Part shown: piece after piece, positions 22,111 to 63,964 of the stretch
Layout: each line of letters begins with the position of its first letter
Numbering within the stretch: the first letter of the stretch is position 1
Assembly (NCBI GenBank): GCA_051362555.1
Contig: CM120640.1
Coordinates: 39,162,788-39,226,787 of the forward strand
Direction: 5' to 3'
From: Lingula anatina
Lineage: Eukaryota; Animalia; Brachiopoda
DNA: 64,000 nucleotides
Made by a program: the position numbers and the translations under genes
Notes under the pieces: model-generated
What the model was told of the DNA's origin: nothing
The model's database searches: none
What the model saw: only the letters and a program-made list of their open reading frames with translations

Positions 22111-22155
<45 letters not shown>

Positions 22156-40148: not shown

Positions 40149-43100
40149 GAGCGTGGCTGTGGCCATAATTCGGCTGAAGACTAGGCAAGCTTCTATCAGT
40201 CGCATGTGCATCTTGCAGTATCTCAGCAAAGAAGATGGCAGTTCTGAAATATGAAAATAACGTTAATGACATAATTCGATATACCAATGCAATGATTCAA
40301 GATTCAAAACTCTTCATTTCAAAACAAATAACAATGAAAGTTAACACAAATTCTTATGACACTAGGAAAGGGATGACAAGTAAAATTACGATCATAGTTA
40401 TCGGATATCGTTTTCAAAGGAAATGTTCAGACGAATAGAGCAATTCCACCGGGGGATAGACTACGCTAACCAATAATGCAAAATTTTAAAAAAGTTCAGA
40501 AGGCAAATGATCTAATGCATATTTCCGTTTTCTCACGAACAGCAAATATTATTTGATGAATGATACAACAGTATGTTTTATGTATGTAAAACTGTTTCAT
40601 TTTATATTACTAAACGGAAAGTATCCTATGAATGCAATTTCTTTTTTAGTGTCATCATGAAAATCTATCAAATTCTCCCTCGCCTATCTGCTTCATTTGA
40701 AAACAAGAAAACGTTTTTTTCTAAGAAGGAAATATCTGCCTTACAGACTAGTTATTAATTTTGGTAGCTGAGAAGATTCACACTGACATATCACAGCCAA
40801 ATACTAAAGAAGTGATTTCAAATTACCAATTTGTTCAGGTGGCACGTTTACGTACACAGAGGTAGGGCCTATCTGAGTGACAGTATCTGGGCACTAAAAA
40901 GTGAAAGCTAAAATATTCCACGCACATTTTCAAAATCCAGTGAACCACCCGGACAAACTGATGGTTTACTACGCGTGGAAATATAAGAACATTATTCCCT
41001 TTGAAATTTGAACTTCCAAAAAGCATGAAAACATCATGTAAGAAAAGCCCTTGATGCAAAGAACATCTCAACCATAAAAGACAGAATCTATTCAATATAA
41101 GTGCAAATCCCAACAAGCTTCTGACAAGCTACGCTCTTAAATTTCAAAGCGCAAAAGCGGAGGAGAATCTCCTTTGTTCTAAGGATACCGTAGCTGTACC
41201 TACCACGACATCGAGTTTTGTACATCAGACGTACCTTCTTTTTTATTTTTATGCGCTTTTGGTCGTTGGACGTAGGATCCATGTAACTCACAAGACATTT
41301 GCTTCAACGGTGAATGAAATAGTCGGCCTTGCCACTTCACCACACCTATCCTGCGTCCTCTTCTTACAGTGTCCAGCTGTCAAGTGACTATTCTGGAAGA
41401 CAGCTCGAACTGCGCTGAGCGACCCATTGTTATGTTAATTACAGCAGGTATGGCAATTTGGTTGAGAAGTTCCTGTTGAAACCATTCTCACAAGAGAGAT
41501 GAATCTGTATGATCTCATGAAAAATTGAGAACATTTTTTTTTTAATCCTGAGCTGTTTTAACACTGATACAGGTTTTTTTTATCAATCGTTCGTCTTAAA
41601 ATCCCTCTTTGCAGAATGCACCAAGACATAATATCCTATGCTCACTCAACACCGTCAGAAGCTGATTGGTTTAGACAGATACAGTTCACTCACCTGTCTA
41701 TTGTCATGTTAATGCAAAGGTGTGGCCCATTTTGAGTAAGGGAACAAACAGTAACTGTCACCAAAGAATATTTGGATAATTGGAAAACTCCTATTGTAAA
41801 GTCCTCTATATACAGGCATACATTTTCAGAGACAATCTATGCACGATACGGGATATTCACAATGTTAGAGGAATTTTTCTTCATTTCACCACGTTCAATC
41901 GAAATTTTATGAATATATTTGATACGTAATTTTGATCAATATTGCATATTGATATATAGTAATCAACTAGAGAGATACGTGTCACTTCAAAGTTGTATTT
42001 TGATTTAACACTCATGTTAACCTAATACAGGCACACTGTACATTTCACATTTCCATTTAAGAGAAATGTTCAACCATTTTCAAATAGGGATTTTCTTTTT
42101 CATCGAATTCAACTTCAAGATATTTCAAATACAAATCAGTAACTCTTACGTTGCAACACATATTTGAGGCAGCTTTTGATAACACTGACAACTGTCAAGC
42201 GGTCCAAATCAAAGTTAGGCCTTTCTTACAACAGATTGGACATTTAGGGAAGTTGGGTTAGGTTAGTGTTATTTTATGCTTAATGTTTGCTTCATTCTAG
42301 TTTAGATCTTCAGTATAAGCCAAGATGTTTTTTTCTAATACTGCAATACATATTTAAGTCCTCACTGACTTTATATCCAATCTTGCGGATTTCCAAAAGG
42401 AAATTTTTAACCAATCAAATCCAATCAGCAAATTAGAAGTTGAGACAAAGACACTGTTTGTCAGGTATGGTGTGAACAGATGTGTTGGACAGTGATAGTA
42501 TGAAAAGACCAGGATACAGAATTAATTTAAACTTAGCATGTTCAAGAAAATGCCAATAAAATAAAATCTTTAAAGATATTTTACATATGCATGCTATTGA
42601 AATCAAGCCATTTGAGAAACAGAGGGCAATATATTTAAACACCACTGTGTATGTAAAAATAATTGCACACCAAATAAATCTTAATAGATGAGATTTATTT
42701 AAATAACATGCATCTGTAATGGAAGATCAAAGTTGGTCTTGTCATTAAGGACTCAGCAAAATTATCTTTCTAACTGTCAATAAACATATCATAGATGAAA
42801 AGTAAAGTCTGTAACTGCAATTTTAAAATCTAAATGTTTCTTTTTTACGAAATATTGTTAAAAATTATTGTGACATAGAATAAACAAATTATAATGCCAA
42901 AATGAAGTGTTCAGTTTTGATTTGGTTACGATATAGAAATTTTGTTGCTTTATTAACTGTGAAAAAACCTTTAACTGATGGCACAAAAATATTACTCCAA
43001 TTATGTGATCCTTTGTAAACAAAAATATTTTGGAACACCACCTGATTCAATGGAATCTAACAAAACGAAACACATAAAAAAATTACAGAAAAAGCTTTTA

Positions 43101-43773: not shown

Positions 43774-43909
43774 TTATGATTTTCCCTCCAGAAGCGCTTT
43801 TCTGGCCATCTCAGAGAAGCGAGGGTCTAACTTTGGCACAAAATCTGGGTAAAGTTTGGAAGCCTGGGTCCCATAGATGTCAAGTAGTTTTCTGTTTATC
43901 ATAGCAAAC
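43774..43909 (-). CDS. TMEM135: TMEM135 last coding exon (FAMINRKLLDIYGTQASKLYPDFVPKLDPRF...*)
   Basis: tttcag acceptor, TAA stop. Confidence 0.94.
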
Positions 43910-46886
43910 CTGAAAAGCACAAAACAAACCAAAAAATTTGTTTTTAAATAAATATTAAAAAGGACGAAACTACCACTGATTAACACTTAATAATAACCAC
44001 AATTAAAACAATTAATTAAATAAGAGGCAGATCCTTTTCCAATAAAATAAAAGTTCTGTCACACTGTCCCCCCCCTTTCCAGCAGCAGCACCACCACACA
44101 AACCTTACAGGACAGGGCTCACCATTTTGTATTAGAATTTCCTGCCTAAATCAAATGCTGTAGCCTTTAGCGCTTCATTGTGATGTGAATTTCAAACCAT
44201 GTTTTAAAGAAGACGGCAGACTCGAAGTTGTTTTAAGAGGAAGTTGACTGGGAGAGCCACTTCAAAGAAAGTAAACTGAGAGTGCTATTTTCAAGAGAGC
44301 AGACTGAGAATGCTGTTTTAAAGAGAGTATACTGAGGGTGCTGTTTTAGAGTAGACTGGGAGTGCTATTTTAAGTAAGAGAGTAGACTGGGAGAGCCATT
44401 TGAAAGAGGAGTAGAAGTGCTGTTTACTTACTTTCCTCCTGTAATCTTTAATAGCCACCTCCAATATGCAGGCCTTATGCTGTGGGCTTCAAACACAGTC
44501 TGGAAGAATTTCACAACAGTCATCAAAACCTTCACATTCAGCATAAATCTAGGAATATTACCTCTTGGTACCAACAAATATAAAATATATGATTCCATAT
44601 ACTAACAGTGTAAAAACTTGTGAATTTTTTCAATAAAAATAAATTCGATTTACTAAGTTACTACATCAGGCACTTATAGCATGAAATAATAACTAAATAT
44701 TTTATATGCTCATGGTATACAAAAATGATATTTATTGTTTACATTTTCAGTGGATCACTTATTCAAAATCTTCACCAAGTTGGGCACTTACAGCATGAAA
44801 TAATATTGAAGTGGATATACTGTACAGCAATATATCACCACATTTTATATGAGGGACCCAGCCCTTCTTTATACCTTTGAAATATAAAATCTGAAATAAA
44901 AATTATGGTTTACATTATAAACCTGACGCAATTTGGGAAAACAGTCAACATCAAGAGAGCAATAATCCATTACAGTATATTTTAATGGTCATTTTTGAAT
45001 TATGAATAATTTGAAACGAGGAACAAAGCAACTAAAAGCACTGATATACTCTATTAACAACAGGTGAAAAGATGAACTCACTTAAATTATGTAGTTTCAG
45101 GAAACAATAATTCAGGTAAACCACAAGAACATAAAAAAGTTTACAGCAATTTTGTTTTTCAATTTCGTTTTTACCTCTGTAATTTTGGTTGCTAAATAAA
45201 GAGCCACACTGGTACTCTTATAAAACAACATGGACCACGATGCCAGGAAACCTGCCACAGCTCCATGGATTGCATGGTCTGTGTCCCTCAGCCAGCGAAG
45301 TACACAGTTCACCATCTGTAGTGGGGGGAAAAAAGGTAATAACAAAGACTAAAGAACATAGAAAGTTCATTTACTCATTTACACCCACCTTCACATAAAA
45401 GACAGAAAATAAATGAAATAAATTTTTTATCTTCACAGATAGTTGTATCAGAACCAATTTTCCCTTTTACTTGCAATTCAAAAACAAATCCATTTGTATT
45501 TCATTAGGCAGAAATTCAATTTACAAAATCATTGGCCCAACAAACACAATCACACCAGAAAACTAAACTGAATCAGTGAACATGACTGGAGATACACTGT
45601 ATGAATACCACATAATTCACCGACTTGCTAAACATACCCTGAACACAGCAGTGAAGAGCCCTAGAAATGCCCCCAAGCTGAAGTTATTTCTGTGCTTCAG
45701 AGCCTGGAGAAGGCTGCTCGGTTGCTTGGTTAGTTTGGGAAGTGCAGTGAAGCAGCCGACTGCAGCTTGGACTATGTAACCCATAGTAAATGACCTGAGG
45801 AATCCCTGAAATTAAATAGAGCATGTTTTCAGACCATTCAAGGTCCACAACTGTCCTGAAAAATATAATTGGTCTCCCAGTTTATTTATGTCAGTCTGTC
45901 CAGCACATGTTTTGTAGCTAATCACAATTAAACAAGAAGGTGACACTTCTAAACAAGTCTGTTTAAAATTGTTTGATATGTTGGCATGTTGGGAAAGCAA
46001 TGTCTGACAGGTAAAATATAAGTCTAAATGCTTATCGGCCATGCATGATTTCTAGCTAGTTTTATCTGGAGAGGTTTAGACTTAACACATGTTGTTTGTA
46101 TAAAACGTGGAAACTGCGACAATACTTGAAGGCTGTTAAACATAGTTTTCAGGCGGGATAATAAATCACGAGCTGGCAGAAGGGTGGATGGTGAACCATA
46201 ACAGAGCCTCAACTTGTTTGACACTTAAAAACTCTGTAAATGCATCTTAACGATGGAGGTCTCTAGAAGCCAGCAACCTCCGCCAATATTACCTCCATAT
46301 AGATGCAATGAATTACACCAAAACGCGTTAAGATTCTGAAACCAGATGACTAACCTAGCTTAAATATAACTCGTTGATTTAAATTGCTGAGGTGAGGTTG
46401 TCTCGCTGTCTGAGGACATGACTGTGAAGCCCCCCTGGTGCCTCAGACACCGATATCCCTGTAAAAATTTATTTTATCCGCCAGCACATTTTGAATCCAA
46501 CAAGTGTAACTGAAAAAACCTAACTAGAGATAAGACAATTTTTCTATCCCTCATTCTACATACATGTAGTGTACATGAAAATAAAAGTTCATCTGTATAC
46601 ATACATACATGTATCATCAAGAGGCCCAAACTTTCAAATTCAATAACCAAATTATGGTCAAATTACCTTAAAACCCTTAATTAGTTTAGCAGCTACATTG
46701 CTATATAACACCCACCCCGTCATTTCCAACATAATTCATTATTCGCAGGCTTTATATAAAAAAAAGACTTCTTGGCAAGACTATCATCTGTTACAGTTTA
46801 ACTGTGATAACAGCATTAAAATAAAACACACCATTGTTCTGGTGCCCAACTATGTTTAAACACAATAATTAAATTTTCATCAAATC

Positions 46887-46942
<56 letters not shown>

Positions 46943-48577
46943 CCAGAAATAAATTACTTTTATAGCATTTAGGATAATATGCTAACACAAGTTTTAATAC
47001 TATTTTTCCATTGCCAGTGCCACCATTCTAAGTGCTAAGACGATTTTTGTAGACATATATGATTTAGACTTTCCCAAAGTGGAGAGCACATGGACGTTGA
47101 TCATTCCCTATAGCTGCTCAAGGAGGCATGTCATTTATCTAATCTGACTGCATTAGTGACAATCCCCATCGAGCTGGATAGATCTACGTAGAACGATACT
47201 TTCAATGGAAACGCGCTCTTAGAAGCAGTACAAATGCATCCTTTTCATCACTGTCCCCAGCACACTTACCTCTATACAGTAAGAGTGGCATCCATGCAGG
47301 TGCTTGCATAGATGGTGTCTTGGTCCCTGTCTCCATTTCTGTACTAGCTGTAGCAGCCGCTGCCACACAGCCTCTGGAAGACGGAGGACATTGTGGTATA
47401 CCTGAGATGATGTCGACTTGATTGTTCTGGCCTCAGACAGCAGATCTGGGGATTCCTCTCCACCCAACAGAAGCCTGCAATATCAAAGACACACTTGTCA
47501 GGATTGAGGAGGCTTGCTTTGATGTTCTGCTTTTTTTTTTTTTTTTAGGTAAACCTTTGTAATTCTCTATTTCTCATCACGTCATATTTTTATTGGAAAA
47601 TGTATTGTAATTAAATACATGCACAAACACAATCATGCCTTAACTGATCAAATGAGTATTGGTAAAAGAGATTTTACCATTTTTATTGGTCTTCCAGGTA
47701 TGTACGTAGATTTCAAATTAGCTATAATCCTAAAGGAGAATCATTTGACATCAATAATCAACGGCTCTTAATGCATTCTAGGAATAAATACAAGAGCACA
47801 TTTGCAAATCAAATGACAAAATGACATCAAGGGAAGTGCACAATAATTAGCAAATTCCCAGAATAGACAATACAGGTGAAAACCCCCTTTGATCTTCAAG
47901 CCATTATCATTTACTTTGCCAAGCTCAGATATAAGTATTAGAGATTATAATAATAGTGATGCTGAATATTTCTCTTTCATCTGGGTGGTATTCAAAGAGT
48001 ACAAGTTTTGTCTTTCTGTTAGAGGCACATGTCTGATGATAGTGTCTGGGAGATGCACCAGATGACCCTTCTGGGCAGACTGATAGTTGTCATCTTCTCA
48101 TCTGCTGGGAATGAAGTCATGAGAGAAAACTGTAGTCAAAACTTTGGGTGGCCTGGGGCCAATGTGTGCAGACAAACCAGACACCCAGTTGTGATTCCAG
48201 AATTTTCTTTTCTCAAAAACAAAAAAAAAATTCAATTACACTTCTTTTTCCAATATAAAAAATTCACTATAGGGTGGAGATCATTAAAATGACTAAAGAT
48301 ATGTTTTAAAATGATAATTCATCTTAATTTGTGGCCAAAATTTTTAGAAGTTGATAAGTGAGTATAGAAGCATCTGATTGTATGTAAAGCATTGAACAAC
48401 ATTCCTGCCAACAGCCATCAATCAGGCAACTGACATTGAAACTTGGCAAAAAGATCTGCCAGCTGCTTTTTCCCTTGTATAAATAGACAAGTTTATTCTG
48501 AGGTCAGAGATCAGGCTCATATCCATCACTTTTCAAATTTCTCTTTTCTTGTCTAATGCATGCATGTACACACACTC

Positions 48578-48787: not shown

Positions 48788-51700
48788 GTTCATAACGCAG
48801 CTGCTCCTTTGCTAGAATAATACTCCATTAGATGGACAGCATTTGACAAGGGAATGTGGATGCAAGGCATAACTCAATCTGATAAAAATGCCAAGCATAC
48901 CCAGCTTAGGGGAGATACCATCAGGGGAGGAAATGTAGTTGTGTGTCTCTCCATCAAAATGAATATAATAAGCACACACCATCAAACCTGACATTACAGT
49001 AAGTGGATTCTTGGTGACAAATTTTGAACAGAAATTTTGACAGAAAAAAAATTCAGTGGCTAAAAAGTAACCCATTTGAAAAATAAGTTACTCCAATTCT
49101 AGCACACTGAAAATCTGCAGTGTGAGTTGGTAAAAAGCCCAGCTTCTTTCTGTCAGTTTTATCAAGCAAAACAAATTTGATTCTCACAGTGATTTAGCTG
49201 AGTGCCTCCTCCTGTTAGAAATAGCATCTTGTTTTGTTAGAGGCTCTGAACAGATTGAGTTCTCAATACAAATAAACTCTGAGAACAGCAGGTGTAAAGT
49301 ATGGCTGGTTACGCGGCTATATGTGCCAAAATAGAAAAAAATAATCGCTGCCTTAAGCAGAATGGTTGCAGTGTATACACATTATATTCCCTCAAGTCTT
49401 TCTCTTTCATTTCCCATGTACATCACTTCATTTGCCTCCTTTTTTAATTTTTACCAAAATTATGATTTCAATGTTTAAAATCTCAGAACATTCTAAAAGT
49501 TACATATTTAGATCAACAGACTGGGTGATACTTACTTAATGAAATTTAATGTGGACTTCTCTAATCCAGATTTTTGCCTGAAAAATACAAAAAAGCAAAA
49601 AATTAGCATTAATCAAAACACGCATTTTATCATGATATTCATCAAGACAGGTCAGCATGCTATCAAGTGCTGCCACCTGGTGAGCCAGGGCCTTGCAACA
49701 GCATGACAAACATGCAATCCACATTCAGGGCACCCCCACCCCGTGGCTCTCGTATAATGCTGACCAAAACATAGCATTAACCTGGTTGCCCTGCACAGTG
49801 TTGTGGGCAGGTATGAATACAGGGCATAATCATCTCCCTTTGTATTATGACAGCTGTATATTACTCTTATCAATGCAGCACATTATGTGGTGGAGAGAAG
49901 GAAAGGCTGTGTCAGTGAGAGGTGGTGCATAGCTGGCAGAGGGGGTGGGGGATGTTCCATGCTGTAATAATGTTCTATGCTGTAATAACCCTGCCCATTT
50001 TTACACCTGAAGAAATAGGAGAACTCCCATTTGAATACCTGTGAATTTGAGGAACTCTCTTCCATTCATGCTATTGATTTCTAACAAATTTCTTTCAGCT
50101 CAGTTTTGTTACCTTTACAGACTTTACTCTAATTCACCTAGCATGCTACATACTACTAACTTATATCAACACTTTTATATCAAATTAAGCCATGATACAT
50201 ACAAATCCTGGTGAATGAAAGCATTTTTTTTTTTTTTTTTTTTGCAAAAAAAGTTTTGCCTAGCTTCCACTCAAAGTGTTTTATTAAGTCCTCCATTTCT
50301 CTATACATCCGTGTTTAGTTACACACTATGACTTAGTTAAGGTGTAGATTTTCCTTTCACATGAGACTGTTGAGGGGAAAAAAAGCAATTGTTGCATGTC
50401 CTGACCCTACCTCCCGACACCTTTTTTCAATGATTCTGTCAGACAGGAGTGAAAGATTGACTCATAATGGATATCTCTGGGTAAGATCTGGCTTCCAAAC
50501 ATACCGCATAAATAGACTCCTGCTAGCACCCTCTTTCAATCAAATTTTAAAGTCAAATGAAGGCAAGTAACCATAAAATTTGTCATAAAAGAAAACAGAG
50601 ACTTTGGCGTACCAACAAGATAAGCATCGACTCCAACCATGTTACACCTCCTGTGTGAAACCTGCATGGTCGGCATATTTCCTACGTCTGCAGTCACTCC
50701 CCGTGTCCTACGGGTCCTCCCCGAACTTGTGAAAAAATAGGGAATTTCGTGACAAATCAACATCATCTAGAGGAATGTGGATATCTTGAGTTCTTCTGTT
50801 ATTTCTCGCAAGTTCAAAAACCAATAAAGATAAGAAGAGTCAAAGGAATAATCCAACTCAAATTCCAAAACTGAAAAGTAAACTGGGTACAGGTAATACA
50901 CATAGTTAAGAAAAAGCATCACATATGTTCTTTTTGTCATGTTATGCGATGGAAATATATGATAACAGATTAAAAAGTCATTGGTGCTATACACCTGTGG
51001 CATTAGATTTCCACTAAATATAGGTTGTAACAAAAACACAAGCGGCGAAATTAGTCAGAACACCATACATATTTCCCATATTTCTTCTCAAAACCACAAT
51101 AATTTTCAAAGTGATGGCATACACGGACACACCCACGAGAAAAGGGAAAAAAAAGATAGGCTTCCAGAAGGGAACTGAAGATGTGTTGTTAAACTTATCT
51201 TAATTTATTCTACTTTTTATCATAACAAGTTTTAACACAAAGAAATAATTCTATATGATCAGACTAGGCGATCAAAATTATCTTTGATATTAAAATACTT
51301 CACAAGAATGTCCCAGCAAAGAATACCGGGTCAAGGAACAATCCTTAAAACCCTGCCTTTGAGCACTCAAGTAAATATGAAAAACTGCTTTTTCCCTGCA
51401 GCGACATCTTAATGAGCACAAAGAAGTCACCCATCTCCGACTCATCTCAAAGAAGACATCAAAGTCAGGTCATTACAAGAAAGACAAGATAGCACGCAGT
51501 ACCGCCGCTCCTCCCTTTTTGGATAGCAAGCCACTTCAGTGGCGCTGTTGTCAAATTCCTCACCCTCCTCAAAGTTGCTTACAGGTATGACATCTGTACG
51601 TGTGACATAGAAGAAGCAGGGGAATATGTGTTTGATGAAGGATGGAAAATGATGAGCACGGCCAAATTTATGGCCTGCTTCTGGAAATAAAACGGTGTCA

Positions 51701-54700
51701 AGCTTGCCGCCAGTGCCCCAGGCCAACCATCGGTGGCCATGACAAGGTGTTACTGATGAGCTGAACGAACAAAGTTGACTTTTTTTATTACCAGGTGGTA
51801 GAGTTCCCACAACCATGACTAACCTTAGTGAGACCCCTTTCAGGTAATAATTTTTGAAATGATGGGTTTCTCAGCATACTTGGGGAGCCAGTGGGTGGAG
51901 AGAGATTTCGTCATTGATTTCAAGATGTGGGTGACGACACCATGAAATTATGGTTTGACACCAGGAAACAGTTGTGTAATACTTCTCCCACTGGTGGTCA
52001 CTGGTATGGCACGGAAATTATCATAAATCTCCCAACAGCCACAAATTTTCTTTAAAAACAATTTTCATCAAGGTGTATCTTTTATCAGCACAAAATCTTT
52101 TAGCAGTCAAATATTGCCAAATTATTTTCAAGATAACAAGGTAAACACTCCCTTTCTCATGTCTTGGTCAACAAAAATATCTCAAAACAACCCCTGTTAT
52201 CATTACTGAATCAACACAAACATTTGTAAACATAAGCTTGTGAGAAAAATTATAGAAATGCAGTAGAGTAGTACCTCAGCTACAAAAATGCCCAAATAAA
52301 ATAAAACTGACACCTTATTCTATATAACAACTGTCAACACCCCATCCCCCCCCCCCCCTCCACGAGTCTTGTTAAGAAAAAAAATGCTTAATGGTATCAT
52401 TTGCAAATCAGCTCAAACAAATCCCCAAACATCAACTTCTGTGAAAAGTGCAGAGATACACGATAGTGGTACCTTATCTACAAGTCTTCGTATGTATGAG
52501 CAAACATAACTGCAGCCTAAGTCTCCTAAATCCCTCAATTAATTTCACCTGCATCGTCTGATACTAAAAGAAAGAAGAAGACCTTTCCACACCTGACAAA
52601 ACCAATGACTAATCACATCTGGCAAACAATCTGAAGAGGACTTCAAAGTTTTGCATTATCGGAAAATCAATGGGGATAAGAGTGGAAAATTCTCCATAAG
52701 ACTTTGAAGCTGGGAGTTATCAAAGCATTTTGGCTTTTGTCGAGGTTTTTTTGTTATTATCTTCCTGAGATGTTTTTAATGGGTGCATACTTGAGAAACT
52801 ACTTCAGTACTGTTCTTGGAGCTATTTCTACACCATTACCTCTGGCAACCCTGAGATTCACTATCTGCAGTGAAACAAAAATGATTCCATCTCTTCTGAA
52901 GATGTCAAATTTCTACATGTATTTATGAATCAGTTTAAAGTGAAGTGCCTAAGAGAGCATTAGTGCATCCCTTTTAGGTGTAAATACAGAGTAAGAATCA
53001 CTGCATGATTTTATTTCATATTTTCAAAACTCAATTTGTCACAATTCTGTGGAAAAAAAAGTGTGAAATATTTGCATGCAGTGGGATTCCCAGGGTGTCA
53101 TTCACACATCAAACTTGAACTTTTTGGCAATGCAAACCAGTACAAGCTCTCAGACATGACAGTGAACAGAGCCACTGGGGGAAAAGCCGTGACTGTTAAT
53201 GAACTTCAAGTACCAGAGTGGGAGATAAGACAAACCAGAGCCTCCCTATGCCTCAACACGTGGAGCTGCCACTTGGACTTCCCCCAACCCACTAACAAGG
53301 CTGCTGAGGCATTAAAAACATGCCATGAATAGTATCATCTCTGCCCTGCCTTTATCTTCACTTTTGCAGTAGACGACGGATCCAAAAATGGGCAATTTAA
53401 TGCGACTGATATAACTGATACATGCTTCTAAATAAATATCCCATCTGTTTTCCCTGTGTTACAGAAATACGGAGAACTAAAAATTATGAGCAATGGCTTC
53501 AAGACTGAGGCAATAGCATTTTTCTTATTCAAACAACCGCTGAATGTAGTTGAATAATTTGCATGGCCAAATCTATCCTCCATACCACACACTTGTACTA
53601 ACTCCTTCAGTTTCTAATAAAATCTCTGAACATGGTGAATCAATCAAAATCAATAGGCATCCAATTTCCAATTAGCCTGACCACCAGACAGGCCAGGGTT
53701 ATCAATGGCATATCTCCTGAGCTTAACAGTGGCTAATCAGTAGCAGGTTATTAGGAATCATCTTTCACATTAAGCTCCACTACACAGGATTTATCCCCAT
53801 GGTACTGGAGCTTTTAATTGTTTCCTTTCTGTATAAATATACATTTATCAGTTTGACAGTTGCTTGACACTTTATTATTGCATATCATGTTTGCCATTTC
53901 CTACATTTCTATAATTTGAAATATATACCATCACAGTCCTTTTCAAAGTCTAATAACCATCATATTGTGACAATTATGGACTTCAATACTATAAAGACCA
54001 TATATCACAATTAACAATATATTTCATTAACTTCTTTCACTTTGAAAAAAAAAACAAACAAACAAACACCTGATAAAATCTCCATCCATTCATCTCATAA
54101 TATACATAGTACTTTGAAAAACAATCACACACACAAAAAAAAAAAAAAAAGAAAGAAAGAAACAACTCATTTCCCCCTTATTTTTTTCCTGGCCAATAGT
54201 TTAATTACATCCCAACGTATTCATTCCAGCATTGTTTTCCAGCAAATTATGCCGAAGTCTCCTGGTAGTTCTGGCTTGCCATGTGGCACACCAAGGCAGT
54301 GGTCAGACGGAATTAACTGATAGCGTCTTGACATGTCTATTACATGGGATGTCAGGGTCAGAAGGCCACTGATAAACCTGGCAAAATAATTGCTGGGGGA
54401 ATGATGGCACTGATGGATGTATAATCACATGACATTCCTACATACTGTAAACTTTGTGTTGATGATAAAGGACTCTCTGAGTTGACTTATTATTATATAT
54501 ACTTAAAGGATAATGGATTTAAAAAAAAAATCAGCTTTTGTTAGATGTTATGTGTAGAGGGACAGACATTTAGGAAGGGATAATGTGCGTTCTGGAAAAA
54601 TAAGTAAAATCTAGATATCAAAAATGATACCAATTTTTTAAACAGAGCTTATGACTTTTATTATGATGTACATGTCATTTACTGTGATCCTTATCCAGAG

Positions 54701-57700
54701 AAGACAGAAAATTACACCACTAAGATTTCTGAATGAACAGACTGTAAGATAAAAAACAAGATACAAGAAAAGATTGCAGAATTAAGTCCTTCAATACTGA
54801 GAGATTGGGAGAGCAGAAAAACAAAACATACAATCCAACATTCACAATTAGATCAATTTTCAAGAGGACCTCTCTCTTGACCTTCCATATAATTACATGG
54901 TATATATATATCATCTTTGTTTCCTACATCAATCCAGATCTTCAACTCCCCATGTATGTGATTGCATGAAGAGATTGACACTGTTGTAGTTCTATATATC
55001 TCAACCTATGATCTGGCCATAAGGCTTTAACATGCCCATCAGAGCATCCAACTGGTGGCATGAGGAGGGCCTCAGTGGTCATCACGCAAACCGCAAACCC
55101 AGAGTGACCGACTTAATGGTCCACTTTTTCTGTTTACCTGTTTATTTGGGATGATCATGACAAATGCTCATTGCTCCACCCCCCCTCCTCAGCACCCCCT
55201 GCATCCCCCAATGTTTAACCCTGTCCTAAATCTCTGGACCTAGCATGATGAATTCCCATATAGTACAACACCTGGAGTTTGATGAGTTTCAATGTTTTGT
55301 TCACCATCACCTGCCAGTTTGGGTTTAAATGATGGCCGGCAATGAGATAAAATAGTTGCAGTGTTCCACACCCAATTACTTCTGTGAACTGACACACAAA
55401 GTATAGCCTGCCAGCAGATAAGGAATGAAGGACACAGGATAATTGACAACATTTACTCTTGTTTGTTACATGCCACTGTGGAGGCACTGCATTGCACTGT
55501 TTTAAGAGAACTTAACAAACTCACAATACCATAGCATTCCTTTTGTGAAAAAAATTGTATCAAGTAAGGTAATGTATCACAGTTACACAGTGCCCCAAGC
55601 AATACATTACAGTAATGCTTGTGATATTTTATATGACTTGTGGTTCAGTTATGGAAATTGTAATATTGTTCTGTGGTGTACTGGGCAGATATTGCAATAT
55701 ATGTGGTCACCATATGACAGCCCCTTTTTTACAGCAGGCCTAATTACAGTCAACCAAACAAAGCTGGGGCATGGGTGACTTGTTTTATTATTTAGAGTCA
55801 CCTCATTCACATATTCTGAAAAAGGGTAGAATTAATTTAAGGAAAACGAGCAGACACACACACACACACAAACACACATACACAAAGAGAGAGAGAAAGA
55901 GAGAGAGAGATTTGATTGGTTTGACCTTTGACAGAAAGAAAAGAGTTGAACTTTCTTACTATAAGAAAAAAGTTTCTGAAACTGATTATGATTTATTGTG
56001 GTGGGCACATAACATTTGATGAACAAGTCATCATTACTAGTAGTGCCATTTCAAATTGGCACAGTGCATAATCACACAAAACAAAAACTTTATGGTGCGG
56101 CTCTTGGAGAAAATTTAAAAAGTGATACTGGAATGGCTTATTCTTTTTTGTGATAAAATGCCACTGGTTTCCCTTGGCAATAATCTCCCACACCTGAAAA
56201 AATGTGTTGCTTTCAGCCAGACATCTCACACACACCATTAGCGACAGCTCTGCACTTTTTCTTCTTCTTAAGACTCACACTTCTGAGACAACAACACACA
56301 CAGACTGTATTATTTTTCTCTCCAGATCCTCCAAAAAGCACTTACTTCATCAATCAATCACTTTCCCCAAACTCATCTGTGAAGTAGCATGTTTAATGCT
56401 ACAATCCAAGATTTAATTAAGACCACATCCATCAAAATGCCATCAATGACATTTGACAGTAACAAGCCGTCCTCACACAGCGACATGTGACGAGAAATTA
56501 GATTGTCACTAACGCAGGAAACGGTGACAACAAAGCTTTTTAAAGCAGTTTGTGATTAGCAATTCATCTCTGGGCGCCTACATGAAAGAAGCTTGCCTCT
56601 AAAACTGATGGATGGATGGCCTGCAGAGAGAAAACTTAAACCAAATTCTAAGCTTCTTGTTCCTTGCATTTCCAATAGGAACAGAAAATTTATTTCTGGG
56701 GTCTTTTGGTATTTTCTCTCTTGATCTAAAAGATATGGAACAGGAAACTATGCAATTATAAAAGATGGATTGTCTTTTTAATTGGGTACGCCAACATTGA
56801 TTTTAATGTACTATTTTATTGAGGGGACAAATTGTGTGGCACATGCCACCATATACAAAATTTTACCCATCATTCTAAAAGACTGCATTATTGTTTGAAT
56901 AAGAAAGAAGACTTCACCTATCATTTTCAAGGGCTGGCAGTTGCAAATCAGGAAATAAATCAACTAATCTACTACAACTACCACAATATTGTATGTTGCT
57001 TCTTGTGGGCATCATGTAGAAAGGAGCATTCAGTTGTGATTTTTTTCTTGGGGGCTGTTAAAACATTCTTGGACACCTACCCCTATTTTCACAGGTGAAC
57101 TGATATAATATGTCTTTATAATCCAATTTTCCATTCTCCTGTATAAGAACAATAAGAGTTGTTTCTGACAAATTTCATCTGTTTGTAACCAAGAGGCAAA
57201 AGAAGTGCAGAAATGTTCAGGGGGATTACAAGCTTCATATAACACAACAACAACACATCACATGTAATTTCACAAGTTAATTGAGAACTTATTATGTCTA
57301 AAGCCGCTTCTGTTGTGTTAGGAACGGCTTTAATCTGATTGCACTTAGTCGGCACTATGCTGCACAAATAAATAGAATGGGATTCAGAGGAAACTACATC
57401 TTCCATGCATAAACAAACGGAGGAAGACGCTCAGAGGGGCTATCTTCTTACGCCAAACCATACCATTCTTAGTGAAGTGCTCTTCCGATCACATTACATG
57501 CTATTAAGTTGATAAGGCACTTTATAAAAACACTGAGTCGAGAGAAAAAATATCAAAGCTAAACATAACAGTGAAGCACTCATATCCTTTTAATAATAAT
57601 TCTTAATAATGTTTTTGTATTGATAGCTGATCTCAATGCCGAGGTTTAATTGCCAAATATCAAGCTATTTTTTCCCAAAATACAAGATCTATTTCATGCC

Positions 57701-60700
57701 ATTCAGCACATGCAAAATCCTATGATAAGCCATTCTTTTTGTTGTTTGGCATGACACATCCTGATAAAAATGTGCTGTTCATCCCTGGCTTACAACTCAG
57801 CATATCTGATATCCACACATTCATTCAAGGGACATCACACTAGTAGGTAGTTATGCTTAACCCGCAGCCTACAAAAACCTCAAACATGTTCTGTAAATAA
57901 CTGCCACATGCAGAATGAATGTATGAATACGGACAAGGAATTATTTTCTAGTTTAAAAGATTTAACATATTAGAAAACATTGACAGAATCAATATCGGCA
58001 AAGCTATGTATTTGGTTTTCATTAAATTCTAAAGCAATCAGTTTTTATTTCAATCTGCAATGGCTGATATGCCAAGTGTACCAGGCAGACATAAGCTACT
58101 GTCATGAAGTAAGAGGGGTGTTTCCACAGTAAGGGGTAGCTATCTTTTTCATGTAATCCAGACAGCAAGCATTGTGCCGTAGATAAGGCAGACACACCGA
58201 AGCCCCGCAAATCCCTTCATTCAATCCCCCAAACTCAGCTGTCAATCTGAATCTATTTGCCAACTGCAACAAATTGGCGAGCCATTGTAGCAAATTACCA
58301 ATGTGTTTTCAATGCATTTCATTCTAATGTCTTCCACTCCTATCCGATTAAGATCACTGCCTATGCATGCATTAGGTTTAATCCGGGGGTCTGTTTGAGT
58401 TCTATTCTATTTCTATTTTTCATATGAAAACACCCATTATTGTCATATTTTTGCTGTGGGGTATAAATCTATGCAGCGTCAATGGGGCGAGGTCGTGGGA
58501 AGGGGGTTACCCTGTAATGTGACTAATGACCTCATCTGTTAATGCTTTCCCCTCCAGAACAGTGGGGTTAAGTCCCCCAGCTTTTGTGTACGTCTACTTT
58601 TCAATAATAATCAATGTGTGCGCTCGTTAGGACTTAACAAGGGGATTTCAATGCAACTTCAAAGGCTGAAAGTGGGGCAGAATTCAGTGCATTTTTCCTT
58701 TCTTAAAGCTTAATATCTGATTCATTAATGTGAGAAGGCCACCTACATCAAAATTTTAATTATTATCTTAATAATTTTCATATTTCTCTGTGTAATAAAG
58801 GGGTGATAATTCTTTAAGTTTTCATTTTGATTTTTTTTTTAATAAAAAAATAATTGTATAAGACGCTTTGAGAAGTTTGATTCTGTTTTCTGTTTTAAAA
58901 TGCAAGAGTTTTTATCACTTTCTGCCCTTTATTTTCATATGAATATTTTCTCAAATCTAGCGTGAAAAATAGATCATTAACTTGAGCTGAAAAAAATTCA
59001 CTGTAACAGAAATTTTCCAGGTCTAACCTCAGGCAAAAGATATACATATTACACCATGCTGAATTAGGAACAGTTTAATGATCATCACATATCATCATGT
59101 ACTATAACCAGTATATATCTGTCAAAGCTAATGTGACATGGGTAACATCTCTCTGTGCAGCAGTGCAAAATGAACATTACAGGTTCACAAGAATAAAATA
59201 AAACAGGTCCTACTACATAATTTTTTTTCTGAAAAATCAACAGATGACTGAAGTTAGCAGCCTAGCAAAGGCCTGCTAAAGAACAGGAGGACTAATGCTT
59301 GGCTGCAAACTTTTCCACATATTACTCTAATATCCTTGACCGATAGCAAAATATATAATATGCTGCAGACTGTGTTCTGTTTTTGTCTATGAAAGTAATC
59401 TTTTTATTCACTTATAATTTCTGATTTCTTTTGTTTAATGATGGTAAAACAATATTAATAGAAAATATTAATAAATACAGCATATTTATAGTAGGGCAAG
59501 TTTCTTTATATTATGTGGACACCCTTCAAACCTAAATGACATAAAAATAGGAGGGATAATCAGCAGAGGTCATACTATTATACATATTTTACACATTTCA
59601 GATATTTTTTACATAACTACATTATTCTGATAAATTTACAAACTGAGATCTACATGCATATTCTGTTTACCTAAAATATTGAAATTAATGAACTATAAAG
59701 ATTTGATTAAAAGACTGCAAAATCTAGTCATTTCCATCCAATCCTCAAACCAAACAAGATTTTTCTGATTCAAAGTTATTTCATTGTGCAAGTTTCAGCT
59801 CAATCAATTTTTAAAAACTTTTTACTCCGACGAGAAATTAAATATGGCAGCCATTTCAAACTTGCAACCAAGGACAAGTTAAGTTTGAGGACAAGAGCAA
59901 TAGGAAGATTGCTTTTGTTTCATTACCCCAGTCATAAGCCACTGCTGCGCACTGCGGCAGCTTTCACAGATTTCCGCAGTTAAAACTGGATTATGTGGAG
60001 CAAAGGACGTGGGCTGTGGTCGATGCCGACAGTGACAGGCCATGTAATATGTTACTTTGGAAATTACACTTGAAAATCTGAGTGTGTTTCTTGCACCTTT
60101 CCTTGTGCTGCAGGAAGCTGCTCTAAGTGGGCACATGTGATAGCAGATTATTACAAGATGATACCGTGCTGGTGGCAGCCAATCGCAGCAGACGTTTGCT
60201 GCTCTGACAGCTCTTTTGACATCACCTCGGCCTCCCAACTACTGTAACATTCTCATAAAAGCAACCACATTAAATGTACACAAACTTACGCAGGAAAGAA
60301 TAAATCATGCAATTCACTTTTTGAATTGCATTCAGGAAACCTTGGTAACCTGCCTTAACTTAATATTATTTTGCACTACTTTTTTTGCTTCACGTAGAAG
60401 CTCCTCTACCGGTGCAGACTTGTGCCCCATTTTAAACATTTTACATGATAAAGAAATCATCACAGATATATCACACTGCTTTCTGATAATGCAGATTTTT
60501 TTCAGGATCATATCAAGTTTGGCATCTAGCAAACATACATATTATACTGCCACTCTACTGATTTCCATCAAAGCATGCCCTTCCTAAATATATAGGAAAC
60601 TTATGCAGAGGCAGATAATAAGTGATTGACAGCATGCCAACAGAATCTGGCCTTACTTCATGGAGCAATGGTACTATTTCCTGATAGATGGATGTTAATC

Positions 60701-63700
60701 ATGTAAACTGGCATTTCCTTATAGGTACAACAAGTGGTGAACGATTGGGGTCAGAAAAATTAGTTCATGGCATACTTGGGATAATACAATTATGATCTAT
60801 CCTATTTCTAACAATTTGTTTTCTTCTGGATCAGTGGTGAGGATCTTTTTGTATAAAGGAGACTCTGGAAAACCTGTAACCTTATAACTCCAATTGTCAT
60901 TTACCTTGAAGAAATCTTATGGAACAATTTTTTCTATGATGTTAGACGAAACTTTCTGAACATAACCTGACTCAAATCTTCTTGTAACTCAATTTTTCTG
61001 GTTTAACAAATTTTCTAGTCCTACAGCATCCTAGTTATATAAAAACTACTGTATATATCAGGGAAGGTATACTACCACTTTTCAAACAACATTTATCAGT
61101 ACACATATACATTAAGTATTTCTATAGAAACAGAAACTTTTCAGTGTAACATCTTTAATAACCAAAGTAATTTTGAACACAGAGGTTGTCTGCTGATTTT
61201 GTCTCAGTGATTTTAAGTTTGATGAAAAAAACATTTCAGTAAATTATTTTTTGCACTTACCTGTAAAGATACAAGTAGATGGAAGATACTATACTGAACA
61301 GGATCACCTGTGAAAGGAGACAAAAATAAATAAAATATAATTCAACACATTTTTCCAATTTCATCTGAAAAGGTGGGGGGAATGGGGTTTCTTTTCAGTT
61401 TATTTTTATCAATGTTCATAATTAAACACTGATGTAAGTGGTTAGATCACAGTCCTGTGGCTTAATATACCTGGTAAAAACACGTCATCAATTTGTCACC
61501 ATCTCTTGTGTATAATTCACTTATTAAATAATTCATAAAAACAAAGAAGCGTGCATGCAGTCACTGTGACAAAATATCACCTAAGTGAGAGCTATGTTAC
61601 TTTGTCTCGTCTGATTTTTGAGCCACAAAAAGTATATCTGATCCATCTCCCAGGTGCACACGTGTCAATTTTCATGGTAAAAGGTAAAAAAAAAAAGCTC
61701 ACAAAAGCTCATCATTTCATAGAAAATACAGCACTTTGGTCTATCACCACTCCATCACTTTTTGTGTCAAAGCATGTCATATCCATCACAACAACATGAA
61801 AGTTGAGCCGAGGTTTCGAGACAACCAGACCTGTCTACACACGGCCTAGCTGCAGTTCTACATCACATTTGTTGTTACCCTGCCCGTGTTATTTTCAACA
61901 CCTCTGAACTCAATCCCACTGTTTATTTATACAAGATACTCTCTGGGGTTTTTCAGAGGCTTTTAAAAGGTATACATATACACTAATGCACTGAGGACTG
62001 GTTGTAGTGCTAATGCAGGTAGAAGTTGCTGAAACTGATAATGCCATTCCAGTAAAAAAAAATGGGCCTGGATTCTTGCTGCTGTAAAGCAAGACTATCT
62101 TATCTTAAATCAGAAAATGAACTCGATTATTTCAAAATAATAGCATATTGGGAAAATGAATTTTCTTTGAACTCACCTGTCCATTTTTGATCTGTCTAAC
62201 ATAGCCCCTTGCTTCTGCCATTCTGTATAAGGTCTCTATTGCCTAAAGCATAGAATTTTCATTTCATTATATATATATATTGTATATCATTATGGGTAAC
62301 CTTGTTGTAAACTGTGAAGAAGACTGATGAAGATAACCTTATCAATACGGAAAGAATTTATGAACAACAGAAAATAAGATGTCAGCTGTTCTCACCAGTA
62401 TAGTTTGGAAAAAGGACAACATTAGTTAAGAGCTATGAAAGACTTACCAAATTTGAGACATATAGGGCCAGCATTCCTCTCCTGTCAAAATAAGCACAAA
62501 ACTTCTTTAAATAAAAGACAAAACTCTCAAGCTTCATTTTAAATTTTTACTTATATATATAATCAAAATTGAATAAACTGTCCAGAAAATTCCTATCAAT
62601 TTTTTGTGATTAATTAGTAATCAAAATAATAAGGCTTTATTCATAGAATTCATGATTGAAAAATAGCCATAAATTTATAACAGTCTCAAAGCAAGTCCCC
62701 GCAAAATCATATGTACAAGACAACAAAAAGCAATACAATCTTCATAAGCAGAACATGCATAAGCTGTCATCAGACAATTACACTTTCTTTGACATTTCAA
62801 AATACATTTCAACATATCAAAATACTAGTATTTTTTTCAATTCCAATATTAATCCAGACAAATTGACAAAAATTAAGTTGACTGCCAATGCTAATCAATA
62901 AATTGGCTAATATTCAACAAGCCAGAGAAAAAAAAACTTGCTTTTGAGACATTTGATTTCTTTAATAAGTAACATAACCATTATGCAGCTTTACAAAATG
63001 CAAACCATATCCACTCAAAGTGATACCCTGACCACGTTAACTTTTAAATGATACAAGTTTACCAAGATTGGTACAGTTAGTTAATGTTAATACAAAACCA
63101 CACAAAATCATATACAATATCAGTAAGTACTACCACTTGGCTTAACAATTAACACTTTAATCAGTACTTGTTAAACTACAGCTTCACCTCTATTTCATAT
63201 TAAGATAAAGCATCATAATCAATAAACATGTACAGTGTTTTTTATGCCATTCCCAATCAATCCAATTATCTCTCATGCAGAGTGTAAGTTACCATCACGC
63301 CAAAGAAATGGTTACATTCTTTGCCCTCTAATGCCTACCTGCTTTTCCTCTCGAGATTGATGGCGACAATGCAGGCACAAAGTGCAGGTAGAGAACTACT
63401 TATGATATAGAAACGGCCCAGAGCCTTCCTGTTAAATCAAAAGAATATAAGGGGATTTGAGACTGAGAGAAGAAATCACAACTACTAATCCATACGTGGG
63501 TGTCTCAAAAGAGAGAGCTTGAAGCAGGTCTTCTCTTGGATCTATGCCTTGTTCTGCTGCAAATGGAGCGAGCACATCAAATATCACTAAAGAATCACAT
63601 AAAAAAAATAGATATCAAAACAGACTTGTGATGGAGATATTGTGTACGAAAACCTTCAACAGATGAATCCTTTTAAGTTTCCGTTCTAAAAGAATCTAAA

Positions 63701-63964
63701 AAAAAAATTGTCATGGTCTTTTTGTCAATCTGTTTGCTTAGATCAGCATTTCAAAAGGTTAACAAGCTGGGAAGAAAGGTTCTAAAGGGGCAGACAGGGC
63801 CAGGGGACTGTAAGCACCTTCATACACATCACCTTCATCACTACTGTCCTACATGATACAACGTAACACCTTACCTGTCCTTTCTCTCCACCAGCAATGC
63901 TAATGCTGGCGCAGGCATTGCACAGGGAAAAACATTGAAGAAAAAGTAAAACCCTACAATTCTC
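43774..63964 (-). CDS. TMEM135: Transmembrane protein 135 (Tim17-related/PMP52) gene span, 5'-truncated
   Basis: Frame-consistent exon chain with motifs ERKSRRGMLALY, ETLYRM, GPRHHLCKH, LGAFLG, AGFLASWSMLFYKS, YFKGI, RPAYWRWLLKITGGKF, N-R..LD.YGT.AS..Y..F.P.LDPR matching TMEM135 as recalled. Confidence 0.95.
44212..44424. repeat. Degenerate minisatellite of about 29 bp (agagtagactgagagtgctgtttta)
   Basis: About 7 diverged units abutting a TMEM135 donor site. Confidence 0.75.
44432..44499 (-). CDS. TMEM135: TMEM135 exon (TVFEAHSIRPAYWRWLLKITGGK)
   Basis: ttccag / gtaagt, 68 nt. Confidence 0.94.
44792..44890 (-). CDS. TMEM135: TMEM135 exon (ILYFKGIKKGWVPHIKCGDILLYSISTSILFHA)
   Basis: tttcag / gtaagt, 99 nt. 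Confidence 0.94.
45175..45315 (-). CDS. TMEM135: TMEM135 exon (MVNCVLRW...AGFLASWSMLFYKS...ITE)
   Basis: ctacag / gtaaaa, 141 nt. Confidence 0.95.
45638..45805 (-). CDS. TMEM135: TMEM135 exon (GFLRSFTMGY...LGAFLGLFTAVFR)
   Basis: tttcag / gtatgt, 168 nt. Confidence 0.95.
46890..46941. repeat. Poly(A) run of about 52 nt
   Basis: Read directly. Confidence 0.9.
47270..47474 (-). CDS. TMEM135: TMEM135 exon (LLLGGEE...GPRHHLCKHLHGCHSYCIE)
   Basis: ttgcag / gtaagt, 205 nt. Confidence 0.94.
48569..48786. repeat. Compound (CT)n/(CA)n microsatellite region
   Basis: Read directly. Confidence 0.85.
49536..49577 (-). CDS. TMEM135: TMEM135 42-nt exon (QKSGLEKSTLNFIK)
   Basis: tttcag / gtaagt, phase 2-2. 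Confidence 0.85.
   Translation of the reverse strand, partial: AKIWIREVHIKFH
61261..61307 (-). CDS. TMEM135: TMEM135 exon (VILFSIVSSIYLYLYR)
   Basis: tcacag / gtaagt, 47 nt. Confidence 0.92.
62177..62242 (-). CDS. TMEM135: TMEM135 exon (AIETLYRMAEARGYVRQIKNGQ)
   Basis: ctttag / gtgagt, 66 nt. Confidence 0.93.
62448..62481 (-). CDS. TMEM135: TMEM135 exon (RGMLALYVSNL)
   Basis: tgacag / gtaagt, 34 nt. Confidence 0.92.
63339..63428 (-). CDS. TMEM135: TMEM135 90-nt exon variant B (KALGRFYIISSSLPALCACIVAINLERKSR)
   Basis: taacag / gtaggc, phase 2-2, ERKSR motif. Confidence 0.88.
63875..63964 (-). CDS. TMEM135: TMEM135 90-nt exon variant A (RIVGFYFFFNVFPCAMPAPALALLVERKDR)
   Basis: ttgcag / gtaagg, phase 2-2, same length and ERKxR ending as 63339-63428. 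Confidence 0.85.

What the first reader, a model, noticed from the sequence alone, without database searches (positions are those of the whole stretch)
63339..63964. Tandem duplicated, probably mutually exclusive exons in TMEM135
Seen: two minus-strand exons 446 nt apart, both exactly 90 nt, phase 2-2, stop-free and with good splice sites. They encode RIVGFYFFFNVFPCAMPAPALALLVERKDR and KALGRFYIISSSLPALCACIVAINLERKSR, sharing the pattern basic-hydrophobic-hydrophobic-G, FY, hydrophobic helix, ERKxR. Recalled: vertebrate TMEM135 has one such segment before RGLL. Inference: an old exon duplication, strongly diverged yet intact, gives two isoforms with alternative transmembrane helices in this Tim17-related protein. 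I know of no description of this.
Basis: partly seen in the sequence, partly recalled or inferred. Interest (0 to 1): 0.8.

Follow-up and report, generated by a model that had tools for sequence, protein, structure and literature searches.

The report
Ancient either-or helix exon in TMEM135
A lamp-shell gene for the peroxisome/mitochondrion membrane protein TMEM135 splices in one or the other of two side-by-side copies of an exon predicted to encode a membrane helix; gene models show the same pair in molluscs, annelids and ribbon worms and likely in amphioxus, so this is an old two-version switch, lost in the vertebrates sampled, whose function is untested.

Summary
Confirmed. The window is Lingula TMEM135. 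Exons A (63964-63875) and B (63428-63339) are 90 nt, AG/GT, same phase, 446 nt apart and homologous. Raw RNA reads join upstream exon to A to next exon (3 and 3 reads) and upstream to B to next (19 and 22) in one run; no A-to-B joint was listed in 8 runs; A is minor. RefSeq already models both (X1, X2). Both exon types occur in 17 of 37 lophotrochozoan species examined, from 4 phyla. Amphioxus has a matching pair that groups A with A (96/86), but an independent origin is not rejected (p-AU 0.20-0.28). All 78 vertebrate proteins have one copy. The exon encodes helix 3 of the first Tim17-type repeat; A and B differ in proline position and in the charge of the following turn. Against strict exclusivity: 10 species have A+B gene models, and no enforcing mechanism was found. 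No paper describing it in 9 searches; no earlier scan finding on TMEM135. New member of a known kind.

The parts
63875..63964 (-). Exon A, 90 nt, minor alternative copy (RefSeq isoform X2, residues 91-120)
   Evidence: (3 reads at each junction in run X2)
63429..63874 (-). Intron between A and B, 446 nt, GT-AG, no U12 signature, no duplex better than shuffles
63339..63428 (-). Exon B, 90 nt, major alternative copy (RefSeq isoforms X1 and X3)
62448..62481 (-). First common downstream exon, 34 nt; joined to both A and B
62177..62242 (-). TMEM135 constitutive exon, 66 nt
61261..61307 (-). TMEM135 constitutive exon, 47 nt
49536..49577 (-). TMEM135 constitutive exon, 42 nt
   Evidence: (loose ends)
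47270..47474 (-). TMEM135 exon, 205 nt
45638..45805 (-). TMEM135 exon, 168 nt
45175..45315 (-). TMEM135 exon, 141 nt; holds helix 3 of the second Tim17-type repeat, the internal counterpart of the A/B segment
44792..44890 (-). TMEM135 exon, 99 nt
44432..44499 (-). TMEM135 exon, 68 nt
43774..43909 (-). Coding part of the last TMEM135 exon, ending in the stop codon

Best explanation
Lingula TMEM135 carries two homologous tandem exons and splices one or the other between the same neighbours, giving two 454-residue proteins that are predicted to share one fold and to differ only in helix 3 of the first Tim17-type repeat, which likely tunes how the protein handles its lipid cargo or partners. SHOWN: both exons are spliced alone in Lingula RNA, B far more often than A; protein records show both types in brachiopod, nemertean, annelid and mollusc species, always A before B where both are in one model; both keep the family's invariant Glu and Arg. 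PREDICTED: the exon covers the end of helix 2, the loop, helix 3 and the turn into helix 4; A puts its proline 14 residues from the exon end, B 17, so the helix break moves by about one turn, and A usually puts Asp/Glu where B has Ser in the basic turn. INFERRED: the duplication dates at least from the common ancestor of these four phyla and probably (about 60%) from the protostome-deuterostome ancestor; B is nearer the ancestral sequence; choice is made by regulated splice-site competition with B as default, not by a hard block, so it leaks in molluscs; the functional difference is a change in the shape and charge of one wall of the membrane domain.
For: RNA: run X2 loose ends at A 5' (3 reads) and B 5' (19) have the same consensus, the upstream exon; A 3' (3 reads) and B 3' (22) continue into the 62481 exon, not into B. 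B-to-62481 joint 3, 5, 2, 2 reads in four other runs. A covered in 4 of 8 runs, from all three studies. RefSeq X1 and X2 differ only at residues 91-119. Both types in 17 of 37 species; no B-then-A order in any protein held. Leave-one-taxon-out profile test 40 of 40 correct. Among 10 species with both: A-A 53%, B-B 53%, A-B within a species 31% identity, flanks 53-58%. A Lingula-only duplication is rejected, p-AU 0.022. E116 and R120 are 2 of only 5 invariant columns in 93 and 102 family members and lie in both exons. Pro at -14 in 20 of 20 A, at -17 in 17 of 20 B; acidic second-last residue 15 of 20 A, 0 of 20 B. Models pLDDT 94, pTM 0.89 for both; N and C halves align at 98.8% with the exon opposite the Tim17 helix-3 motif.
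Against: A junctions pass the 3-read listing threshold in only 1 of 8 runs, and an A-to-B joint under 3 reads per run would not be listed; only 6-30% of each run was read. 10 of 37 species have an A+B model and Mytilus galloprovincialis has one with neither exon. No steric, U12/U2, frame or RNA-duplex mechanism was found. The two folds were predicted from largely shared alignments, so their likeness is not independent, and no coordinates were available to say which face of the helix changes. Tissues of the runs are unknown. No functional difference was tested. 20 of 37 species showed only one type, mostly from a single record whose cluster I did not open; true loss and missing annotation are not told apart.
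Confidence: 0.75

Rival explanations
1. The lophotrochozoan pair is real, but the amphioxus pair is a separate, convergent duplication of the same exon, so the event is not of bilaterian age.
For: Holding the two amphioxus exons together is not rejected (p-AU 0.203; 0.284), nor is a clade of all deuterostome exons (0.144). The amphioxus A-like exon has a long branch and lacks the proline; profile scores are modest (25.0 against 17.8). An unnamed distant row fell inside the A group. The gene is prone to duplication: a brittle star has an either-or pair of the preceding exon and Dreissena a third copy. Convergent events in orthologous genes are common (PMC9741552, passages). The amphioxus exons were seen only as protein isoforms, not as DNA.
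Against: In both trees amphioxus X2 falls with lophotrochozoan A (94/90; 96/86) and X1 on the B side; X2 has 5 of 13 A-diagnostic and 2 of 9 B-diagnostic residues, X1 has 1 and 3; the convergent tree is 10.7-11.8 log-likelihood units worse.
Confidence: 0.35
2. A is a cassette exon whose main role is regulatory: adding it to B, or skipping both, makes a protein with one helix too many or too few that is inactive or degraded.
For: A+B models in 10 of 37 species and a skip-both model in one; both exons keep the frame, so such transcripts would be translated.
Against: In Lingula the A 3' reads go to the common exon, not to B. A keeps the family's invariant residues and is as conserved as the flanks, which is expected of a working replacement. 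Whether the A+B models rest on more than a few reads was not checked.
Confidence: 0.12
3. Exon A is a decaying duplicate spliced at noise level.
For: A is about 12-14% of junction reads in the best run and unseen in 4 of 8 runs; the three octopus species listed show B only.
Against: A is conserved at 53% identity across four phyla, 30 residues long in 20 of 20 species.
Confidence: 0.02

Closest known systems
Tandem duplicated exon substitution events (mutually exclusive homologous exons), catalogue of 236 human and 154 Drosophila events (PMC9741552, passages; PMC8373072, supplement table searched)
   Same: Two adjacent homologous exons of equal phase, one used per transcript, replacing a structured segment; old and conserved.
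   Different: TMEM135 is not in the human table (0 hits; control TMEM87 found). Here the pair is kept in lophotrochozoans and probably amphioxus and is absent from the vertebrate proteins sampled. TMEM135 is an organelle membrane protein, not an ion channel or muscle protein.
Ca-alpha1T / cca-1 duplicated exon, conserved across protostomes and lost before chordates (PMC9741552, passage)
   Same: A very old pair in a membrane protein, retained in molluscs and absent in vertebrates.
   Different: The TMEM135 pair was not seen in the one spider and one priapulid record examined and may be retained in a chordate (amphioxus).
Vertebrate TMEM135/PMP52 (PMC8303332 passages; PMC5072337 passages; PMC9813353 abstract; PMC10541902 passages)
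   Same: Orthologous protein, two Tim17-type halves; the review's predicted human membrane segment 96-115 lies within the segment that A and B replace.
   Different: Described human isoforms are a deletion (133-154) and truncations, not a swap; 78 of 78 vertebrate proteins listed carry one copy, which scores as B but has the A-type proline.
Oyster alternative oxidase with a spliced duplicated exon (PMC5589949, search listing only)
   Same: Duplicated exon, alternatively spliced, in a lophotrochozoan organelle membrane protein.
   Different: Different gene; I saw only the listing and the start of the abstract.

Membership tests
Tandem duplicated, mutually exclusive exons | Two adjacent exons of one gene that are homologous | tested here: met
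   43 of 90 nt, 0 of 10,000 shuffles; profile probability 97.7%
Tandem duplicated, mutually exclusive exons | Same phase and similar length, intact splice sites and frame | tested here: met
   90 and 90 nt, AG/GT, same frame
Tandem duplicated, mutually exclusive exons | Each exon spliced alone between the same neighbours | tested here: met
   Run X2: 3 and 3 reads for A, 19 and 22 for B; RefSeq X1/X2
Tandem duplicated, mutually exclusive exons | Not included together | tested here: inconclusive
   No A-to-B joint listed in 8 Lingula runs (threshold 3 reads), but A+B gene models in 10 of 37 species
Tandem duplicated, mutually exclusive exons | A sequence-encoded block (short intron, U12/U2 clash, frameshift on co-inclusion, docking duplex); typical, not required | tested here: inconclusive
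   Intron 446 nt, GT-AG, both exons multiples of 3, best duplex -27.3 against -23.9 to -29.4 kcal/mol in 8 shuffles; protein-regulated choice not testable; the intron upstream of A is almost wholly outside the window
Tandem duplicated, mutually exclusive exons | Tissue- or stage-specific use (common in the class) | not testable with these tools
   Runs are coded, tissues unknown; A seen in 4 of 8 runs at low depth
TMEM135 (Tim17 family) | N-terminal PF15982 plus C-terminal PF02466 | tested here: met
   Both isoforms pass both cut-offs: 153.9 and 161.1 bits; 37.9 and 37.8 bits
TMEM135 (Tim17 family) | Two Tim17-type repeats with a Tim17-like fold | tested here: met
   N half against C half 98.8%; best structural matches Z 8.1-9.3 over 113-135 residues are small complex I membrane chains and chains of the TIM22 and TIM23 complexes, next rows 6.3 or lower. 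Foldseek E-values were all above 0.1, and Z under 13 is weak for helical bundles
TMEM135 (Tim17 family) | Peroxisomal/mitochondrial membrane location | not testable with these tools
   Known for mouse and human from PMC10541902 and PMC5072337 (passages)

The most novel reading that the evidence does not exclude
The exon was duplicated in the last common ancestor of protostomes and deuterostomes. Lophotrochozoans and amphioxus still switch between the two copies; other lineages each kept one, with hemichordates and possibly vertebrates keeping a descendant of the derived A copy (A-type proline; hemichordates join A at 99/88, vertebrates next at 85/75) and echinoderms, ecdysozoans and cephalopods keeping B. 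The A/B swap marks helix 3 and the following charged turn as the part that sets TMEM135's cargo or organelle choice, a natural pair of variants for a protein whose molecular activity is still unknown.
Probability: 0.3. Interest if true: 0.78.

Novelty: new member of a known kind. Interest (0 to 1): 0.6.

Why it matters
Tandem exon swaps that last this long are rare and usually functional (PMC9741552, passages: 236 in human, 21 of them of bilaterian age). TMEM135 controls DHA levels, peroxisome-mitochondrion crosstalk and mitochondrial fission in mice, yet its molecular activity is undefined (PMC9813353 abstract; PMC10541902 passages). A pair of natural isoforms that differ in just one 30-residue helix, kept apart for more than 500 million years (age from my own knowledge of when these phyla split), points to the part of the protein worth mutating and gives a direct test: express A and B in null cells and compare. 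If the amphioxus pair is orthologous, it is also a case of a bilaterian splice switch lost on the way to vertebrates.

Tried and rejected
No whole genome is held for this window, so the upstream exons and intron were seen only through reads and RefSeq proteins. The look-up of sequencing runs listed no indexed RNA holder; nine raw-read runs were added by species label, of which 8 were laid (X3 not). A region search with the A segment found only the Lingula protein among 50 candidates; the full-length search listed 120 of 445 hits, so the taxon sample is the best-scoring part and holds no named cnidarian, insect or nematode. Exon A alone hits no Pfam family, B hits PF15982 below its cut-off. Mechanisms of exclusion tested and not found: short intron, U12 signature, frame shift, long-range duplex. 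Foldseek gave no match at E 0.001 or better; the wide VIA search was not run. The ESM Atlas gave only family-level clusters for one unnamed protein, not used. dN/dS could not be computed: no DNA of other species was to hand. The exon trees have 31 columns and none of the tests on amphioxus or vertebrates reached significance; the 10 unnamed rows were left out; one search used 36 named rows (a subset of 53) and 11 unnamed ones, with 30-residue exons given one gap at a fixed place. Two tandem genes, or A and B as consecutive unrelated segments, were rejected. The idea that the exon holds the PEX19-binding signal could not be checked: the position is in a figure of PMC10541902's supplement that is not held as text. 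Literature: 9 searches gave no paper on this pair; the catfish splicing paper names TMEM135 only as differentially expressed; the supplement of PMC9741552 held as text (15,271 characters) had no hit even for the control term, so its Drosophila table was probably not seen. Subscription journals and bioRxiv supplements were not searched. Earlier scan notes: none on TMEM135.

Full report
Observation. The intron between them is 446 nt, that from B to the next exon 857 nt. They are homologous: 43 of 90 nt identical (0 of 10,000 shuffles), 8 of 30 residues, and 97.7% probability between profiles of 19 A and 19 B exons. No further copy lies in the window.

The gene. A downstream exon found one protein at 96% identity, Lingula anatina TMEM135. 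Its cluster holds RefSeq isoforms X1 and X2, both 454 residues, which differ only at residues 91-119: X2 has A, X1 and the shorter X3 have B. Either exon plus the window's ten downstream exons gives residues 91-454 with one mismatch. Both isoforms pass the Pfam cut-offs for TMEM135_C_rich and Tim17. So the two forms were already in the databases as automatic models.

RNA. Eight of nine listed raw-read runs were laid, 6-30% of each read. In one search the B-to-62481 joint has 3, 5, 2 and 2 reads in X1, X4, X7, X5, loose ends show the upstream exon joined directly to B (3 and 3 reads), and A has low depth in X7 and X5 only. In one search, run X2 shows the same upstream sequence attached to A (3 reads) and to B (19), and the 62481 exon attached to A (3 reads, 14 letters, matching that exon and not B) and to B (22). 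X8 covers A at depth about 2, confined to the exon; X6 and X9 show B only. No A-to-B joint was listed in any of the 8 runs, but the tool lists joints only from 3 reads. A is thus real and minor, about 12-14% in the best run, seen in 4 of 8 runs and in all three studies. The tissues are unknown.

Conservation. Among the 120 listed of 445 relatives and the members of 20 further clusters that I opened, two clear exon types appear. Of 37 named lophotrochozoan species with the region, 17 show both types: Lingula, the nemertean Lineus, the annelids Owenia and Paralvinella, and 13 gastropods and bivalves; 20 show one, mostly from a single record. Wherever both are in one model the order is A then B. 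Profiles built without the tested taxon classify 40 of 40 exons correctly. Across ten species with both, A-A and B-B identity are each 53%, like the flanks (53-58%), while A-B within a species is 31%. The tree splits A from B at 94/90 and rejects a Lingula-only duplication (p-AU 0.022). The three octopus species show B only.

Deuterostomes. Branchiostoma floridae X1 and X2 are both 467 residues and differ only at 99-125, the same segment. X2 scores higher with the A profile (25.0 against 17.8), X1 with B (25.7 against 12.5); X2 shares 5 of 13 A-diagnostic residues and falls inside A in both trees (94/90; 96/86). Holding the two amphioxus exons together costs 11-12 log-likelihood units but is not rejected (p-AU 0.20, 0.28), and one unnamed distant row also fell in A, so I put orthology at about 60%. 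All 78 vertebrate proteins listed have one copy that scores as B yet has the A-type proline; three hemichordates are intermediate and join A at 99/88. Unnamed distant family members mostly have the B pattern, which suggests B is nearer the ancestral exon. Which copy vertebrates kept is open (p-AU 0.31 for the B side).

Protein. Both isoforms fold with pLDDT 94 and pTM 0.89 (alignments largely shared). The exon covers the end of helix 64-93, a loop, a helix (102-115 in B; 98-105 and 107-115 in A) and the start of helix 118-142. The N and C halves align at 98.8%, placing this helix opposite helix 3 of the Tim17 domain, in line with the two-domain description in PMC5072337 (passages); the best structural matches are chains of complex I, TIM22 and TIM23 at Z 8.1-9.3, weak for helical bundles, with no significant Foldseek hit. 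A review places a human membrane segment at 96-115 (PMC8303332, passage). Both types are equally hydrophobic (best 19-residue mean 1.69 and 1.73) and keep E116 and R120, two of five invariant columns in the family. They differ consistently: proline at -14 in 20 of 20 A and at -17 in 17 of 20 B; 2.05 against 0.6 cysteines; always 30 residues in A, mostly 31 in B; Asp or Glu before the last Arg in 15 of 20 A and 0 of 20 B, where 16 have Ser. I infer a helix break shifted by one turn and a less basic turn. What this does to cargo, partners or targeting is untested; that the Asp could mimic a phosphorylated Ser is speculation.

How the choice is made. The 446-nt intron is too long for a steric block, both introns are ordinary GT-AG, both exons keep the frame, and the best RNA duplex in the region is no better than in 8 shuffles. 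Consistent with a soft, regulated choice, 10 of 37 species have an A+B model and one mussel a model with neither; I did not check the read support of those models. This is the main evidence against strict exclusivity.

Comparison and novelty. This is a tandem duplicated exon substitution, a known and mostly functional class (PMC9741552, passages). TMEM135 is absent from the human table of such events (PMC8373072 supplement, control found). Nine searches gave no paper on this pair; most hits were seen as listings only, the Drosophila table of PMC9741552 was probably not visible, and subscription journals are not covered. The scan's own notes hold nothing on TMEM135. Verdict: real, old, apparently undescribed in print; a new member of a known kind, interest 0.6, higher if the amphioxus pair proves orthologous.

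Noticed in passing
P0314 and P0166 (Amphiura filiformis TMEM135 X1, X2), residues 49-92: The two brittle-star isoforms differ over the segment just before the A/B exon, which looks like a second, separate either-or duplication in the same gene. Seen as proteins only.
   Followed up: partly
P0024, P0030, P0034 (Dreissena polymorpha X3, X4, X2): Three versions of the segment: one A and two different B-type, one lengthened by about ten residues.
   Followed up: partly
P0091 (Mytilus galloprovincialis X4): A RefSeq model that skips both exons in frame; the same species has A, B and A+B models.
   Followed up: no
P0037, P0144, P0146 (Octopus) and cluster of P0026: Cephalopod records show only the B type; A may have been lost.
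   Followed up: no
window about 1-32,600, + strand: Exons of an androglobin gene (PF22069 hit at 21868-22155, 80.6 bits; weak IQ motif), tail to tail with TMEM135.
   Followed up: partly
window 28552-29580, - strand: Tc1/mariner-type transposase pieces (PF01498 and PF13358 above cut-off) in two separate open frames inside the androglobin gene.
   Followed up: partly
window 40838-41128, - strand: Weak cytochrome b561 hit (18.6 bits, under the cut-off of 23); possibly an exon of a further gene downstream of TMEM135.
   Followed up: no
window 49577-61261: One 11.7-kb intron in a gene whose other introns in the window are about 0.2-2 kb (exon map).
   Followed up: no
window 63365: G-to-A variant (+ strand) in exon B in runs X7, X8, X9; a third codon position, silent by my reading.
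   Followed up: no
P0200 (unnamed): A 541-residue record that repeats the whole N-terminal part of TMEM135 twice; probably two neighbouring genes fused by gene prediction.
   Followed up: no
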